Source of the DNA: a bacterium HR34
GTDB taxonomy: Bacteria; Patescibacteriota; Minisyncoccia; Minisyncoccales; HRBIN34
Assembly (NCBI GenBank): GCA_002923395.1
Contig: BEIK01000004.1
Location: forward strand, 1-61,534
DNA length: 61,534 bases
Direction of reading: 5' to 3'
The notes beneath the pieces were generated by a model. That model did not search any database. It saw only the letters and a list, made by a program, of their open reading frames with translations, and had not been told where the DNA came from. The translations under genes and the position numbers were made by a program. Shown piece after piece: positions 13,496-17,595 of this stretch (position 1 is its first letter; each line of letters opens with the position of its first letter).

Positions 13496-14023
13496 ATGAT
13501 TTTAGCAACGCACATTATTTTTGTTTTGGTTTTAATTAAGGTTTTTAATGGCAATTTTTTGTTTGTTCTGCCGCTGGCCTTGCTGTCCCATTATTTTTTA
13601 GACGTTTTTTGCCATTGGGAGTATGATTTAAAATCAATGGAAAATAGGTATGAGAGGGAAAAACGCAGATTTTCAAAAAACATTTTGTTTGGTTTTGAGT
13701 TTTTATCAGATAAAGATTTTATGAAAGACTTGTTTAAGGTTGGTAGCGATTTTTTCTTTGGTTGGGGAATTTTCGTTTTTGTGGTGCACTATTTTTCTGA
13801 TTATAATTTGACTTTATCTGTTTTTTCTGCTTTTTTGGCTGTTTTGCCAGATTTGTTGCAGGCGTTATTTTATACATTTAAATTGAAATTTTTGCAGATT
13901 CACCAAAATTTTCATAATATTTTCCATTCAAGATGCGACGAGAAAACCCAAAGAAAATTAAGCCTTTTTGTCTTACAGATTGCCCTTAATGTTGTTTTTA
14001 TAATAATTTTTGTTAAAATATAA
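13496..14023 (+). CDS. Membrane protein, possible membrane-bound metal-dependent hydrolase
   Basis: Hydrophobic; TH near the start, SHYFLD..CH, LPD and H-rich C-terminal motifs. Confidence 0.55.
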   Translation: MILATHIIFVLVLIKVFNGNFLFVLPLALLSHYFLDVFCHWEYDLKSMENRYEREKRRFSKNILFGFEFLSDKDFMKDLFKVGSDFFFGWGIFVFVVHYFSDYNLTLSVFSAFLAVLPDLLQALFYTFKLKFLQIHQNFHNIFHSRCDEKTQRKLSLFVLQIALNVVFIIIFVKI

Positions 14024-14051
14024 CCTGATATTATTAAATAATTTAAAAAAC

Positions 14052-14639
14052 ATGGACGCAAAAAAAGAAAGGTGTTTGGTTTTAATAAAGCCAGATGGTG
14101 TTTTAAGAAGTTTAATAGGAGAGATAATAGCAAGATTTGAAAAGTGCGGATTAAAAGTTGTTGGGCTTGGTATGGTTTGGCCCAAAAGAGAGGATATAGA
14201 CAACCATTATCCGAAAGAAGAAGCATGGCTTAGAAAAATAGGCGAGAAAACTCTTAAAAATTATGAAAAATACGGCATAGATCCACAACAAGAACTTGGA
14301 ACCTCAGATACTCTTGAAATAGGAAAAATGGTAAGAGAATGGCTTTTAGATTATATGACAAAAGCGCCAATAGTAAAAGTTGCTTTGGAAGGGAACCATG
14401 CCGCTGACGTTGTTAGAAAAATAGTAGGTGATACTTTGCCATTAAATTCATCTCCAGGAACTTTGAGGGGAGATTTCTCAGTAGAAGATGCTGGCTTGGC
14501 AAACAGAGAAAAAAGAGCAATATATAATTTGATACATGCCTCAGAAAACAGTGAGGAAGCAGAAAGGGAAATTAAGGTTTGGTTTAAAGAAGAAGAGCTT
14601 TTTGATTACAAAAATTTATTAGATAAGCTTTATGAATAA
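14052..14639 (+). CDS. ndk: Nucleoside diphosphate kinase
   Basis: LIKPDGV.R, PGTLRGDF, N.IHAS; ATG 14052 preferred over the track start at 14010. Confidence 0.95.
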   Translation: MDAKKERCLVLIKPDGVLRSLIGEIIARFEKCGLKVVGLGMVWPKREDIDNHYPKEEAWLRKIGEKTLKNYEKYGIDPQQELGTSDTLEIGKMVREWLLDYMTKAPIVKVALEGNHAADVVRKIVGDTLPLNSSPGTLRGDFSVEDAGLANREKRAIYNLIHASENSEEAEREIKVWFKEEELFDYKNLLDKLYE

Positions 14640-15339
14640 GCAAATTGTTATTTCTTTGGGTGGAAGTTTGGTTTTTCCTTCTAATAAGGAAGAACCGGAT
14701 ATAAAGTTCGTTTCAGAGTTTGCCGAGTTTGTTAAAAAAGAGATGCTAAAGGTGTATGATAGAATTTTTATTGTAGTGGGTGGTGGAAAGCCGGCGAGAA
14801 TATATCAGCAATCTTTGAAAAAAGCCCTGCCTCATATTAGTGATAGAGAGTTAGATATAGTTGGAATTTATGCAACCTATGTTAACGCCTTCTTTGTGAA
14901 GGCGTTTTTTAGTGATTATGAATTTATTTATGAAGATATTATAAAAGGAAAAGATTATAGGAATTTGCCAGAACTAACTAATGAAAAAATTATTGTTGGC
15001 GCTGGAGGAGAACCGGGTTATTCTACTGACTTAGATTCTGTTTTGCTGTGCGAAAGATATGGTTGCAAAGAATTATTAAATTTATCTAATACAAAGGGTG
15101 TTTACGATAAAGACCCAAATAGATTTAGCGACGCACGATTTTACCCAAAAATTTCTTGGGAAGAATATTTAGGTATTATTCCAAATGAGTGGAAGCCTGG
15201 TTTGAGTACCCCTTTTGATCCGAAAGCATCAAAATTGGCGCAGAAGTTGAGAATAAAAGTTTATATAGTTAAAGGGGATTTAATTAACCTTGAAAAAATT
15301 ACGAAAGAAGAAAACTTTGAAGGAACTATTATAAGTTGA
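14632..15339 (+). CDS. pyrH: UMP kinase (archaeal-like)
   Basis: SLGGS, VVGGG..AR.Y, PGYSTD, GVYDKDP, PFDP.A. Confidence 0.92.
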   Translation: MNKQIVISLGGSLVFPSNKEEPDIKFVSEFAEFVKKEMLKVYDRIFIVVGGGKPARIYQQSLKKALPHISDRELDIVGIYATYVNAFFVKAFFSDYEFIYEDIIKGKDYRNLPELTNEKIIVGAGGEPGYSTDLDSVLLCERYGCKELLNLSNTKGVYDKDPNRFSDARFYPKISWEEYLGIIPNEWKPGLSTPFDPKASKLAQKLRIKVYIVKGDLINLEKITKEENFEGTIIS

Positions 15340-15405
15340 AATAAATTTATGGAAAAAATAAAAAATATTTCATAGTATTAAGATTAATAGAACTTAACAA
15401 AAAAA

Positions 15406-16200
15406 ATGTTTGAGAAGATCAGAAATTTTTTTGGAGAAATTTCAAAAGAGAGAATAAGTAAAGATAAAGAGATAGAAAAACTTATTTCTATTGGAAAGAT
15501 AGAAGAGGCAATAAATTTTACCATAGAAAACAGAAGCTTTAAGGATTTTTATGATATTATAGATAAGATAATAAATAGAGACAAAAAGATTATAGAATTT
15601 ATAAATGATAATTATGGTTTTAAAAAACTTCAAGAAATTCAAGCAAGTAGAAATGTTCGCAATTCAATCTTTAGATCGTTAGATGAACTTATAAATTATA
15701 TAAAAGAAAATCAAAAACTGATAATAGGAAATATTGATAACAAAAATATTTATGATGAGAAATTGAAATTTGTTATTAGTGTGATAGAAAATCTGTGGTA
15801 CAATTTTGATTCATTCAAAATATACAAGTTTTTAGCTAAAAAGATTATCCCAGAAAAGGAACTCTCTCGTTTATATGAAGATAGGGATTATGAGTGGATA
15901 AAAGTATTTTTAACATTATTTAATTATTTAAATGGATATGAATTACAATCTTCAAATAAAACATTGGGGTATGGAAATGAGGATAAAGATAAAATATCAA
16001 TATATATTCTAGAAAAATTAAGTTCAGAAATAGAAAATAGGTTGGACGACAACATTAATATAGCTATTAGCAGGGCCTATGAATTGGACGAACAAAAGCT
16101 ATTCAATGAAAGGCAATATAAAATAAAGCCTTTAGCACCAGTTAATGCTTTAAAATATTTTATCGAAGAATTTAAAAAAAGTGGGATTTTAAAAATATAA
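15406..16200 (+). CDS. Hypothetical protein
   Basis: 264-aa ORF, helical and E/K-rich, no motif recognised. Confidence 0.7.
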   Translation: MFEKIRNFFGEISKERISKDKEIEKLISIGKIEEAINFTIENRSFKDFYDIIDKIINRDKKIIEFINDNYGFKKLQEIQASRNVRNSIFRSLDELINYIKENQKLIIGNIDNKNIYDEKLKFVISVIENLWYNFDSFKIYKFLAKKIIPEKELSRLYEDRDYEWIKVFLTLFNYLNGYELQSSNKTLGYGNEDKDKISIYILEKLSSEIENRLDDNINIAISRAYELDEQKLFNERQYKIKPLAPVNALKYFIEEFKKSGILKI

Positions 16201-16250
16201 AAAAGTGACTAAGTAGAGGTTGTTCGATCTATAAAATTTATTTAAAGTTG

Positions 16251-16280
16251 TTGCTTAAAGTGTGTAAAAATTGGTAAAAT
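16251..16280 (+). promoter_or_regulatory. Sigma70-type promoter of the 6S-like RNA
   Basis: TTGCTT (16251) - 18 bp - TAAAAT (16275) with an upstream TG; predicted +1 near 16287-16288. Confidence 0.6.
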
Positions 16281-16287
16281 ATAATAT

Positions 16288-16415
16288 GCCCCGGTGTAGA
16301 AGTTCTGGACCATACAGGATTTTTAGGGATGCCTTATACCTTATCGCCTCCCATGGTGGATAAGGTGCGGCAACCCACCTGTAACTGTTTTCCAAGAACT
16401 TTCTTATGCCGGGGC
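16288..16415 (+). ncRNA. ssrS: Compact 6S (SsrS)-like RNA
   Basis: Long irregular hairpin: GCCCCGG/CCGGGGC, AGTTCT/AGAACT, TACAGG/CCTGTA, GGGATGCC/GGCAACCC, ACCTTATC/GATAAGGT; GGCAACCCACCTG resembles the Firmicutes 6S motif; followed by TTTT. Confidence 0.65.
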
Positions 16416-16421
16416 TTTTGG

Positions 16422-17357
16422 TTAAAAGATAGTTTTTTGTGTTTTTGTTAGAATAAACAAAATAATGATTGCAAATAATGTAATGTGCGAGAATACATTT
16501 TCTTTGAAAATAAGTAAAGACATTGAAAGCACAAGCAAGGTAGGAATTGAAATTGCCTTTCTTGTGTGAGGAATTATTAAAAGCAACCCTATTAAAGTTT
16601 CTATTATTGCGCTTGTTAGTATCCAAAGTTCTGTGGTCATTGGTATGTAATTTTGAAGATTGTACTGTTCAACCACAAGCGCTGATAGGTGAGGTTTGAA
16701 TATTTTTTCATAAAAAGCAAGGAACATTAAAGAAAAACCTATTCCAAAAGCAAGAACGTGTTCCTTTATAATTTTTGTTTTAATAACATCGCAAGCGAGC
16801 AGTAAATATACGAAAATTGAAAGCACTTCTGCGTTTCCAAAAATATATATGTTTTTTGAGATAATTATAGATGCTACGTATCCAATAATTCCTAAAATTG
16901 AGCCAGCAAAAGTTATATAGTTTTTCTTTAGGATAAAGCCCAATATTATTAAAATTGCAATTATATATTGGAGTGTAATTAAAATTTCTATGGTATGAAC
17001 AAAAGGAGATATAAATTCTTTTGAAATTGCGAGATTTATTAAGTATATTAATACAGCAACGCTAACTATGTAAGTGTTATATTTAGAGAATGCGTGGAGT
17101 TTGTCGGATATTTTTTGGTAGGTTTTTGTTTTTGAAATATAAAGAGCAAGAAGATATCCTATTGTAATTGAAACAAAAATAATAATTATTAAAAAAATTC
17201 CGTTAGAAGAAAAAGCGTTCCAAATTTTTTCTAGCCACAAGTTTTTCAATAATATGTCGTTTGCGCTTGTATTTACCACATATCCAACATGGGAAAATGA
17301 AGAAAAGGGGAATAGCAAAAAAGGCAAAAGTAATAAATTAACAATTTTCCATTTCAT
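16422..17357 (-). CDS. Polytopic membrane protein (DoxX-like)
   Basis: Signal-like N-terminus, about 8 TM; F...GIG.S......EK, IETLIGLLLI. Confidence 0.6.
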   Translation of the reverse strand: MKWKIVNLLLLPFLLFPFSSFSHVGYVVNTSANDILLKNLWLEKIWNAFSSNGIFLIIIIFVSITIGYLLALYISKTKTYQKISDKLHAFSKYNTYIVSVAVLIYLINLAISKEFISPFVHTIEILITLQYIIAILIILGFILKKNYITFAGSILGIIGYVASIIISKNIYIFGNAEVLSIFVYLLLACDVIKTKIIKEHVLAFGIGFSLMFLAFYEKIFKPHLSALVVEQYNLQNYIPMTTELWILTSAIIETLIGLLLIIPHTRKAISIPTLLVLSMSLLIFKENVFSHITLFAIIILFILTKTQKTIF

Positions 17358-17595
17358 AAATATAATACCCTTTATTTTTTATCTTTTCTTCTATGTCTTT
17401 GGAGGCTTTTTCTATGTGGCAAAATTTACATTCATTTGACGACAATTCTTGCCCTTCTTCACCTTTAGTTTTTAGGTATTCATTTCCATATGCGATAACT
17501 TTTTCATAAGGAGTATTTTTCTCTACTATTATATCAAAGTGCATTATCCTGCCGTCTTTTCTTTTTACATAAGTATCGTAAACTGCTATTTCCAT
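17338..17595 (-). CDS. DUF2024-family protein
   Basis: VYDTYV.RKDG.IMHFDI, ECKFCH.E.A. Confidence 0.8.
   Translation of the reverse strand: MEIAVYDTYVKRKDGRIMHFDIIVEKNTPYEKVIAYGNEYLKTKGEEGQELSSNECKFCHIEKASKDIEEKIKNKGYYIYEMENC

What the first reader, a model, noticed from the sequence alone, without database searches (positions are those of the whole stretch)
16251..16419. Unannotated compact (~128 nt) 6S-like RNA with its own promoter
Seen: a GC-rich island in AT-rich DNA that folds end to end into an irregular hairpin (the + strand folds better through G-U pairs), with an extended -10 promoter 7 nt upstream and a T-run after it. GGGATGCC/GGCAACCC-ACCTG resembles the conserved Firmicutes 6S core as I recall it. 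It is much shorter than typical 6S RNAs (~180-200 nt), so it may be a minimal form. The ORF track miscalls it as antisense coding sequence.
Basis: partly seen in the sequence, partly recalled or inferred. Interest (0 to 1): 0.65.

Follow-up and report, generated by a model that had tools for sequence, protein, structure and literature searches.

The report
Compact 6S RNA gene, CPR bacterium
The flagged stretch is a real, separately transcribed small-RNA gene of about 128 nt. It is very probably a shortened 6S RNA, the RNA that restrains RNA polymerase by imitating an open promoter, in an ultra-small Patescibacteria (CPR) bacterium where the standard Rfam model scores it below threshold.

Summary
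Window 16288-16415 (+) is a GC-rich island that folds end to end (-59.6 kcal/mol, z -6.9). It folds better on the + strand. A TGn-extended -10 box sits 7 nt upstream and a T-run follows.

The interpretation also holds. Rfam 6S (RF00013) is the only plausible family hit. It aligns over its full length but scores 25.9 bits, below the cut-off of 46.4.

A covariance model built from relatives finds one copy in 275 of 401 genomes of the same order. Covariation is very strong: 97.8% of cells are paired and 24 of 29 pairs show compensatory changes. Near-consensus sigma-70 promoters are conserved upstream.

A second model was trained only on this order. It also finds homologues across the phylum, and two of those pass Rfam's 6S cut-off (59.4 and 47.7 bits). 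This links the family to certified 6S RNAs.

The architecture is the 6S design: closing stem, open central bubble with conserved flanks, apical arm. Both arms are trimmed, giving 129-145 nt against the usual 160-200.

Binding to RNA polymerase and pRNA synthesis are inferred, not shown. The window's own copy shows no above-chance potential for the known release hairpins.

Verdict: a divergent, compact member of a known family. Other windows of this scan have found the same kind of gene. The held literature does not describe it.

The parts
16251..16256 (+). -35-like hexamer TTGCTT (3 of 6 matches to TTGACA), 18 nt upstream of the -10
   Evidence: Read. It aligns with the nearly invariant TTGACA of relatives. 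32 of 41 relatives have a -35 with at most 2 mismatches and a 16-18 nt spacer.
16272..16280 (+). Extended -10 promoter element TGGTAAAAT (TGn + TAAAAT)
   Evidence: Read. 39 of 41 family members have a -10-like hexamer ending 5-12 nt before the RNA (36 at 5-7 nt, mode 6 nt from the model start), and 14 carry TGn.
16288..16415 (+). Compact 6S RNA gene, 128 nt from first to last paired base. The transcription start is inferred at about 16286-16288. The 3' end is inferred within the T-run.
   Evidence: MFE -59.6, z -6.9. RF00013 25.9 bits, full-length. Own models R1 88.9 bits and R2 68.3 bits, one hit in the genome.
16288..16308 (+). 5' strand of the closing arm (P1 GCCCCGG, P2, P3 UUCUGG). This is the presumed pRNA template region, corresponding to downstream DNA in the promoter mimic.
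   Evidence: It pairs with 16392-16415. P1 and P3 covary across 45 sequences: 8 of 8 and 4 of 6 pairs show changes on both sides.
16309..16325 (+). 5' strand of the central bubble (ACCAUACAGGAUUUUUA, 17 nt)
   Evidence: Aligned to the open 5' bubble of RF00013. Family bubble length is 13-17 nt, with conserved sequence and no covarying partner.
16326..16333 (+). Internal stem, 5' half: GGGAUGCC (GGG, bulged A, UGCC)
   Evidence: GGG/CCC is invariant in 45 of 45. The next four pairs covary (e.g. GU/AC, AU/AU, UG/CA, GC/GC).
16334..16368 (+). Apical arm: small internal loop plus a 12-bp hairpin with a 6-nt loop. It is the variable arm and corresponds to upstream DNA in the promoter mimic.
   Evidence: Fold. 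All 8 modelled apical pairs covary heavily and the loop sequence varies.
16369..16376 (+). Internal stem, 3' half: GGCAACCC
   Evidence: It pairs with 16326-16333 and aligns to the '...gcaCCC' columns of RF00013 with top posterior probability.
16377..16391 (+). 3' strand of the central bubble (ACCUGUAACUGUUUU). It begins with the family-wide ACYUG motif.
   Evidence: CCCAC(C/U)UG is nearly invariant in the family and matches the RF00013 consensus CCCACCUgg.
16392..16415 (+). 3' strand of the closing arm (CCAAGAA ... CCGGGGC)
   Evidence: It pairs with 16288-16308, with a 1-nt and a 2-nt bulge.
16416..16419 (+). T-run (UUUU) directly after the GC-rich closing stem. Inferred termination site.
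   Evidence: Read. 15 of 41 relatives have a T-run right after P1, and most others have a separate hairpin plus T-run 15-35 nt downstream. The scanner did not call a terminator.
16255..16626 (-). Spurious 123-aa antisense ORF overlapping the RNA gene
   Evidence: Listed. It has no Pfam match. It overlaps the 3' end of the 311-aa gene (16422-17357) in another frame.

Best explanation
Window 16288-16415 (+) encodes the 6S RNA (SsrS-type) of this Parcubacteria/Paceibacterota-like CPR bacterium, in a compact form.

The RNA is transcribed from its own sigma-70-type promoter (extended -10 at 16272-16280). Transcription ends at the U-run after its GC-rich closing stem.

It folds into a rod with three parts:
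- a closing arm of about 22 bp (P1-P3);
- a central bubble of 17 and 15 unpaired nt, whose flanks (UUCUGG...GGGA and CCCACCUG...CCAGAA) are the conserved part;
- an apical arm of about 19 bp.

Inferred by homology with E. coli 6S and B. subtilis 6S-1: the rod mimics an open promoter, occupies the active-site cleft of the housekeeping sigma-RNA polymerase holoenzyme and so damps transcription when growth slows. On nutrient upshift the polymerase would copy the 5' bubble/P3 strand (about 16296-16311) into a short pRNA. That unzips P3 and releases the enzyme.

Shown here: the gene is real, it has a conserved structure, it is single-copy and widespread, it has a promoter, and it is homologous to 6S. 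Inferred: polymerase binding, pRNA synthesis and the physiological role.
For: Fold significance and strand asymmetry.

RF00013 is the only plausible Rfam hit at the locus. It is full-length and on the correct strand: 25.9 bits, E 0.0016 against all 4227 families.

In the 61 family members scanned in small loci or the narrow window stretch, 6S is the recurrent family: 12 of 20 order members score 20-42 bits, and two more score 37.0 and 34.8 bits. Of 20 phylum members found with a model trained only on this order, 18 hit 6S and two exceed the gathering score (59.4 and 47.7 bits). This gives transitive homology to certified 6S RNAs.

The family is single-copy. It occurs in 275 of 401 genomes of the order and in 87 of 401 sampled genomes of the phylum.

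Covariation on 45 sequences: 97.8% of cells are paired, against 40-54% when partners are slid. 24 of 29 pairs have compensatory changes. 249 cells are compensatory, against 59 +/- 7 in shuffles.

A TTGACA / 16-18 nt / TAnAAT promoter is conserved at a fixed distance: 39 of 41 have a -10 and 32 of 41 a -35.

At family level, the release structures known from E. coli-type and B. subtilis-type 6S are favoured over shuffled controls. The 3'-bubble hairpin gives -3.13 vs -1.02 kcal/mol (32 of 45). The bubble-collapse helix gives -3.19 vs -1.75 (36 of 45). With the template strand blocked, 26 of 45 fold a 3'-bubble hairpin.

Truncated 6S-1 variants of only 78-82 nt still bind the polymerase, template pRNA and are released in vitro (PMC8876501). 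A 128-nt natural 6S is therefore mechanistically plausible.
Against: The window's copy scores well below Rfam's gathering score (25.9 vs 46.4 bits). The genome search with RF00013 did not report it.

At 128 nt it lies outside the 160-200 nt quoted for 6S RNAs (PMC8414754).

The order-trained model R2 does not detect E. coli ssrS (best 4.3 bits), so the link to model 6S RNAs is only transitive.

In the window's own RNA neither the 3'-bubble hairpin (-0.3 vs shuffled -1.2 kcal/mol) nor the collapse helix (-2.1 vs -1.8) beats chance. Thermodynamic folding also partly zips its bubble (ACAGG/CCUGU). The expected number of cross-bubble pairs is 8.3, rank 7 of 45.

The covariation counts come from an alignment fitted to the structure, and the sequences are related. 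The shuffle statistics therefore overstate significance.
Confidence: 0.85

Rival explanations
1. It is a CPR-specific rod-shaped housekeeping RNA that shares ancestry or shape with 6S but no longer works as a polymerase-sequestering promoter mimic. For example, it might bind another protein or act without pRNA-driven release.
For: It scores below the Rfam threshold. Both arms are shortened. The window's copy lacks above-chance release-hairpin potential and has a partly zipped bubble. R2 does not recognise E. coli 6S. No functional data exist.
Against: The most conserved columns are exactly those flanking the bubble in RF00013. Homologues form a continuous score range up to 59 bits. At family level the rearrangement potential is retained. 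Truncated 6S-1 still runs the full cycle in vitro (PMC8876501).
Confidence: 0.09
2. It is the genome's SRP (4.5S) RNA or another known housekeeping RNA that Rfam fails to recognise.
For: It is a single-copy, widely conserved hairpin-like RNA of about 130 nt. No SRP RNA was found elsewhere in the genome with RF00169 or RF01854, by a fuzzy domain-IV motif search, or in 20 non-coding GC-rich islands.
Against: No SRP family hit at E <= 10 at the locus, and none in the 60 relatives scanned in small loci (E <= 10, E <= 1) or in the ten 3-kb loci. In SRP RNA the apical GNAR loop and its adjacent loops are the conserved part. Here the apical hairpin is the most variable part (all 8 pairs covary, loops differ), and conservation sits around a large internal bubble. 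tmRNA is elsewhere in the genome (C1 30984-31335).
Confidence: 0.02
3. It is not a stand-alone RNA gene. Instead it is a cis element (leader, attenuator or bidirectional terminator), or part of the antisense 123-aa ORF.
For: It lies in a 221-bp gap between convergent genes and ends 3 nt before the stop codon of the - strand gene. An ORF spans it on the - strand.
Against: It has its own conserved -35/-10 promoter at a fixed distance. The next gene is convergent, so the RNA cannot be its leader. Neighbouring genes differ between relatives, while the RNA is conserved with compensatory changes that would scramble a protein. The ORF has no Pfam match. At 128 nt with a conserved open bubble it is far more than a terminator.
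Confidence: 0.02

Closest known systems
6S RNA / SsrS (Rfam RF00013), especially the RF00013-passing 6S RNAs of other Patescibacteria (e.g. loci L122 at 59.4 bits and L123 at 47.7 bits)
   Same: Rod architecture: closing stem, large central bubble, internal stem and apical hairpin. Conserved bubble flanks (GGGAg..cc / gg..cACCCACCUgg, CUGG/CCAG). Own sigma-70 promoter. Single copy. The same covariance model (R2) finds both.
   Different: The window's RNA is 128 nt, against about 155 nt for those Patescibacteria members and 160-200 nt in general. It scores only 25.9 bits, below the gathering score.
Bacillus subtilis 6S-1 RNA (bsrA) and Firmicutes-type 6S
   Same: Both family-level release options are present: a 3'-bubble hairpin, and a 'central bubble collapse helix' between the distal 5' bubble (UUCUUUU) and the 3' strand of the closing helix (AGAAGAA) (PMC8876501).
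   Different: 6S-1 is about 190 nt and has extended arms, including a '-35'-like region. The CPR RNA lacks roughly 25-30 nt of the apical arm and 15-20 nt of the closing arm.
Engineered truncated 6S-1 variants 6S78 and 6S82cp (PMC8876501)
   Same: They show that a bubble flanked by short arms is enough for binding, pRNA synthesis and release. The CPR family looks like a natural step in that direction.
   Different: Those are artificial and bind about 10-fold more weakly. The CPR RNA keeps about 20 bp on each side and is under purifying selection.
Escherichia coli 6S RNA (ssrS, 183 nt)
   Same: The same general design, and an extended 3'-bubble hairpin forms on pRNA synthesis.
   Different: No detectable sequence or profile similarity: R2 gives 4.3 bits and blastn finds no match. 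The synteny also differs (zapA-ssrS-fau vs ndk-linked).

Membership tests
6S RNA (SsrS; Rfam RF00013) | Operational criterion: RF00013 covariance-model score at or above the curated gathering score (46.4 bits) | tested here: not met
   The window scores 25.9 bits, full-length, E 0.0016. It is not listed at gathering threshold. This is a curated cut-off, not a biological property. Order members score 20-42 bits.
6S RNA (SsrS; Rfam RF00013) | Homology to certified 6S RNAs (transitive, profile-based) | tested here: met
   Model R2, trained only on the window's order, finds single-copy homologues across the phylum. 18 of 20 of these hit RF00013 as their top family, two of them above the gathering score at 59.4 and 47.7 bits.
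6S RNA (SsrS; Rfam RF00013) | Rod-shaped secondary structure: closing stem, large central bubble, internal stem with terminal hairpin | tested here: met
   Fold. All four helices are supported by covariation: 24 of 29 pairs with compensatory change and 97.8% of cells paired. The bubble strands are 13-17 and 12-16 nt, conserved in sequence and without covarying partners.
6S RNA (SsrS; Rfam RF00013) | Conserved sequence elements flanking the bubble (G-C-rich pairs; GGGA... and ...CCCACCUGG) | tested here: met
   GGGAUGCC and GGCAACCCACCUG align to the RF00013 consensus with the highest posterior probabilities. GGG/CCC is invariant in 45 of 45.
6S RNA (SsrS; Rfam RF00013) | Length of about 160-200 nt (PMC8414754; about 200 nt in PMC8876501) | tested here: not met
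   128 nt in the window. Family range is 129-145 nt, median 136, model hits including one flanking base. This is the sense in which the RNA is a compact variant.
6S RNA (SsrS; Rfam RF00013) | Stand-alone, usually single-copy gene with a housekeeping-sigma promoter, conserved across a lineage | tested here: met
   One hit per genome in 275 of 401 (order) and 87 of 401 (phylum) genomes.
6S RNA (SsrS; Rfam RF00013) | Potential for pRNA-induced rearrangement (3'-bubble hairpin or bubble-collapse helix) | tested here: inconclusive
   At family level it is favoured over shuffles. In the window's own RNA it is not better than shuffles.
6S RNA (SsrS; Rfam RF00013) | Binds the sigma-70/sigma-A RNA polymerase holoenzyme and templates pRNA synthesis | not testable with these tools
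Bacterial SRP RNA (RF00169 / RF01854) | Conserved domain IV: apical GNAR tetraloop with conserved symmetric and asymmetric loops | tested here: not met
   No SRP family hit at the locus or in any scanned relative. The apical loop and stem are the most variable part.

The most novel reading that the evidence does not exclude
Patescibacteria as a phylum carry a naturally miniaturised 6S lineage of about 110-160 nt, with the window's 128-nt copy near the lower end. These would be the smallest natural 6S RNAs. In copies such as this one, which lack an above-chance release hairpin and have a partly self-complementary bubble, release from the polymerase may work differently from both the E. coli and the B. 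subtilis schemes. These organisms have very few transcription factors, so such an RNA could be a main global switch between growth and dormancy.
Probability: 0.3. Interest if true: 0.6.

Novelty: new member of a known kind. Interest (0 to 1): 0.4.

Why it matters
6S RNA is a near-universal global regulator. However, no paper in the held library mentions 6S RNA together with Patescibacteria, CPR, Saccharibacteria or Parcubacteria. The standard Rfam threshold misses this order's genes.

Recognising the gene has three uses. First, it fixes a likely annotation error, the antisense ORF. Second, it shows that ultra-small, regulator-poor symbionts keep a polymerase-directed RNA. Third, it provides a natural series of shortened 6S RNAs that shows how much of each arm selection tolerates losing. 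That series complements the in-vitro truncation work on 6S-1 (PMC8876501).

A model such as R2 could be used to annotate the family across the phylum.

Tried and rejected
- The genome search with RF00013 on the own genome returned nothing. Its first-look filter missed the locus that cmscan finds, so this is not evidence of absence.

- BLAST of the RNA against 60 relatives gave only noise-level hits. The RNA is too divergent for sequence search.

- One pattern hit (G003:C5) was a chance match and was dropped. The real G003 copy was later found elsewhere by R1.

- MAFFT followed by RNAalifold on unaligned homologues gave a poor structure. I replaced it with a hand-made structural alignment fed in with N padding.

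- Search for the genome's SRP RNA, to exclude that identity: RF00169 and RF01854 found nothing. A fuzzy domain-IV motif search found nothing. A cmscan of 20 non-coding GC-rich islands gave only palindromes that hit miRNA models. The SRP RNA remains unlocated. The SRP reading was rejected on the RNA's own features.

- Reciprocal test on E. coli ssrS with R2 was negative. blastn against E. coli genomes found no match.

- Wehner 2014 (PMC4615782) and Barrick 2005 (PMC1370762) are not held.

Full report
**Observation**

The window around 16250-16420 was read directly.

- Position: a 221-bp gap lies between a + strand ORF ending at 16200 and a - strand ORF whose stop codon is at 16422-16424. This gap holds a GC-rich island: GC reaches 0.47 against 0.19-0.31 on either side. 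The genome is 30.7% GC.
- Fold: the island folds end to end as RNA. For 16289-16419 (+) the MFE is -59.6 kcal/mol, z = -6.9, and no shuffle of 200 does as well. The reverse strand gives -50.8, z = -4.3.
- Boundaries: the first and last paired bases are G16288 and C16415, a span of 128 nt.
- Promoter: TGGTAAAAT (16272-16280) is a TGn-extended -10 box, 7 nt upstream of G16288. TTGCTT (16251-16256) is a weak -35 with an 18-nt spacer.
- Terminator: TTTT (16416-16419) follows the GC-rich closing stem.
- The simple consensus scanner called neither promoter nor terminator. The -35 has only 3 of 6 matches, and the 'stem' is the whole rod.
- A 123-aa ORF on the - strand (16255-16626) overlaps the island. 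It has no Pfam match.

**Database comparison**

At Rfam's gathering thresholds the 61.5-kb window shows only four tRNAs. A permissive scan of 16150-16500 against all 4227 families gives one meaningful match. It is 6S/SsrS (RF00013) at 16285-16419 on the + strand, with model positions 1-187 of 187, 25.9 bits and E 0.0016. The gathering score is 46.4.

The alignment places GGGAUGCC and GCGGCAACCCACCUGUAAC on the model's best-conserved columns (GGGagccc ... gagggcaCCCACCUggaAc) with top posterior probabilities. It deletes parts of the model's closing stem and apical arm.

**Relatives**

The genome (G000) has 579 kb in 22 contigs and is rated 100% complete. NDK relatives are Parcubacteria/Paceibacterota-type MAGs, so the organism is a CPR bacterium.

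BLAST of the RNA against 60 relatives found nothing usable. A pattern taken from the core (GGGRNNCC, 25-70 nt, GGNNRCCCACCTG) hit 11 of 301 genomes of the order, against 1 control hit. The NN pairs visibly compensate: GU/AC, AU/AU, UG/CA, GC/GC.

Ten of the eleven hits share one architecture. G003 was a chance hit.

- P1: GGUCCUGC/GCAGGACC.
- P2: variable.
- P3: UUCUGG/CCAGAA.
- A bubble.
- GGGANNCC/GGNNACCC.
- An internal loop and an 8-bp apical hairpin.
- Total length 128-139 nt.

I built a hand-made structural alignment and from it covariance model R1.

- R1 found a match in 275 of 401 genomes of the order at E <= 0.01. There was nearly always exactly one match, most of 125-145 nt. The window scored 88.9 bits and had no second copy.
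- A second model, R2, was built from 45 diverse members.
- R2 found single-copy matches in 87 of 401 genomes sampled across the phylum. Full-length matches were mostly about 110-160 nt, with a few up to 200 nt.

**Structure support**

On the 45-sequence alignment, 97.8% of pair cells are standard pairs. The figure drops to 40-54% when the 3' partners are slid by 1-3 columns. 24 of 29 pairs show changes on both sides. 249 cells are compensatory, against 59 +/- 7 in column shuffles. Only the invariant GGG/CCC pairs never vary.

Two caveats apply. The alignment was fitted to the model, and the sequences are related.

G-U pairs are frequent in all helices. The antisense strand scores 30 bits or less against 62-96 bits for the sense strand. 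This fixes the coding strand as +.

**Transcription unit**

With 70-nt flanks aligned, relatives show a nearly invariant TTGACA, a spacer of 16-18 nt, and TAnAAT.

| Feature | Count (of 41) |
|---|---|
| -10 hexamer with at most 2 mismatches, ending 5-12 nt before the RNA (36 at 5-7 nt) | 39 (28 at the same distance) |
| TGn extension | 14 |
| -35 with at most 2 mismatches | 32 |
| T-run directly after P1, as in the window | 15 |

Most of the other relatives have a separate hairpin plus T-run 15-35 nt downstream.

The neighbours differ between relatives, and in the window the next gene is convergent. The RNA is therefore a stand-alone gene, not a leader.

**Is it 6S?**

Scanning small loci around family members against all of Rfam gave the following.

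- 12 of 20 order members hit RF00013 full-length on the right strand at 20-42.3 bits. No other family recurs at the RNA itself.
- Two more members score 37.0 and 34.8 bits.
- Of 20 phylum-level members found by R2, 18 hit RF00013. Two exceed the gathering score: 59.4 bits (156 nt) and 47.7 bits (158 nt).

A model trained only on the compact RNAs of this order thus retrieves RNAs that Rfam itself certifies as 6S. The scores form a continuum. This is transitive homology.

The direct reciprocal test on E. coli ssrS failed: R2 gave 4.3 bits. That is unsurprising given how far gammaproteobacterial 6S has diverged, but it means the link is indirect.

**Mechanism**

Known 6S RNAs are rod-shaped RNAs of 160-200 nt. 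Their central bubble mimics an open promoter. They bind the housekeeping holoenzyme, and the polymerase copies the 5' bubble strand into a pRNA. The pRNA-induced refolding then releases the enzyme. Refolding is by an extended 3'-bubble hairpin in E. coli and by a 'central bubble collapse helix' in B. subtilis and A. aeolicus (PMC8414754, PMC8876501).

The CPR family keeps the parts that matter for this cycle.

- The bubble has 13-17 and 12-16 nt.
- Its conserved flanks are retained.
- At family level both refolding options exist. When the presumed template strand is blocked, 26 of 45 members fold a hairpin between the 3' bubble (CUGGA) and the freed P3 strand (UCCAG).
- The hairpin energy is -3.13 vs -1.02 kcal/mol for shuffled bubbles (32 of 45).
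- The distal 5' bubble (UUCUUUU) can pair with AGAAGAA of the 3' strand at -3.19 vs -1.75 (36 of 45).

What is trimmed is the distal apical arm, the region of the '-35' mimic, and part of the closing arm. Engineered 6S-1 variants of 78-82 nt without those parts still bind, template pRNAs and are released, with about 10-fold lower affinity (PMC8876501).

For the window's own RNA the picture is weaker. Neither refolding helix beats shuffles. The MFE partly zips the bubble through ACAGG/CCUGU. This pairing is not conserved in the family. The window ranks 7th of 45 for predicted cross-bubble pairing.

Polymerase binding and pRNA synthesis remain inferences.

**Rivals**

- SRP RNA is the only other single-copy hairpin RNA of this size, and I could not find an SRP RNA elsewhere in the genome. 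But no family member gives any SRP hit. The apical hairpin, which is the invariant heart of SRP RNA, is here the most variable part.
- A cis element or a protein-coding reading is excluded by the promoter, the convergent neighbour, the variable neighbourhoods, and compensatory changes that ignore codon structure.
- A repurposed 6S-like RNA cannot be excluded without experiments.

**Context and prior notes**

Earlier notes of this scan report compact 6S genes in many other Patescibacteria, often right after ndk. I tested the synteny.

- In 7 of 28 ndk loci from public genomes, R2 finds the RNA 60-300 nt downstream of ndk on the same strand.
- In the window ndk (14010-14639) lies 1.65 kb upstream on the same strand. 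A UMP-kinase-like gene and a hypothetical gene lie in between.
- In three of four order relatives examined, the gene just upstream is an adenylate-kinase-like protein.

The held literature has no paper that mentions 6S RNA together with Patescibacteria, CPR, Saccharibacteria or Parcubacteria.

**Verdict**

This is a real, conserved, independently transcribed RNA gene. It is a divergent and shortened member of the 6S family, confidence about 0.85.

It is ordinary in kind. It is useful as an annotation correction and as a natural 'minimal 6S'. The finding recurs within this scan, which lowers its surprise value.

Noticed in passing
window 14010-16200; loci L153, L154, L167, L170, L175, L179, L180: The compact 6S gene lies directly downstream of ndk, on the same strand, in 7 of 28 public Patescibacteria ndk loci. 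In the window two genes (a UMP-kinase-like AA_kinase at 14632-15339 and a 264-aa hypothetical at 15406-16200) sit between ndk and the RNA. In three of four order relatives the upstream gene is a ~355-aa adenylate-kinase-like protein. The RNA thus recurs in a nucleotide-kinase neighbourhood.
   Followed up: partly
whole genome G000 (579 kb): No SRP RNA was detected. RF00169 and RF01854 via the genome search, a fuzzy domain-IV motif search and a cmscan of 20 non-coding GC-rich islands all found nothing. No RNase P RNA appeared in those islands either. A full-genome Rfam scan was not run.
   Followed up: partly
G000 C3:1-80 and C17:6640-6689 (loci L135, L149): GC-rich near-perfect palindromes at two contig ends hit plant and animal miRNA models on both strands. 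They may be assembly artefacts or terminal hairpin repeats.
   Followed up: no
loci L072, L078, L086, L090, L095, L107 (3' flanks): In several relatives a tRNA gene on the opposite strand begins within ~20-40 nt of the 3' end of the 6S gene (convergent). The sequence ...GGGAGTTGAACCCGG... recurs there.
   Followed up: no
genomes G024, G028, G172: Three genomes of the order show two R1 matches, not one. In G172 these are C5:19117-19258 and C2:9398-9536. They may be 6S paralogues, as in Bacillus 6S-1/6S-2, or a sign of contamination.
   Followed up: no
window 16422-17357 (-) and 17338-17595 (-): The convergent neighbour is a 311-aa multi-pass membrane protein with a weak MauE/DoxX-like match (20.5 bits, below the cut-off). 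It is followed by a DUF2024 protein.
   Followed up: no
G000 C1:30984-31335 (-): ARAGORN finds the genome's tmRNA here, and 45 tRNA/tmRNA genes in all.
   Followed up: no
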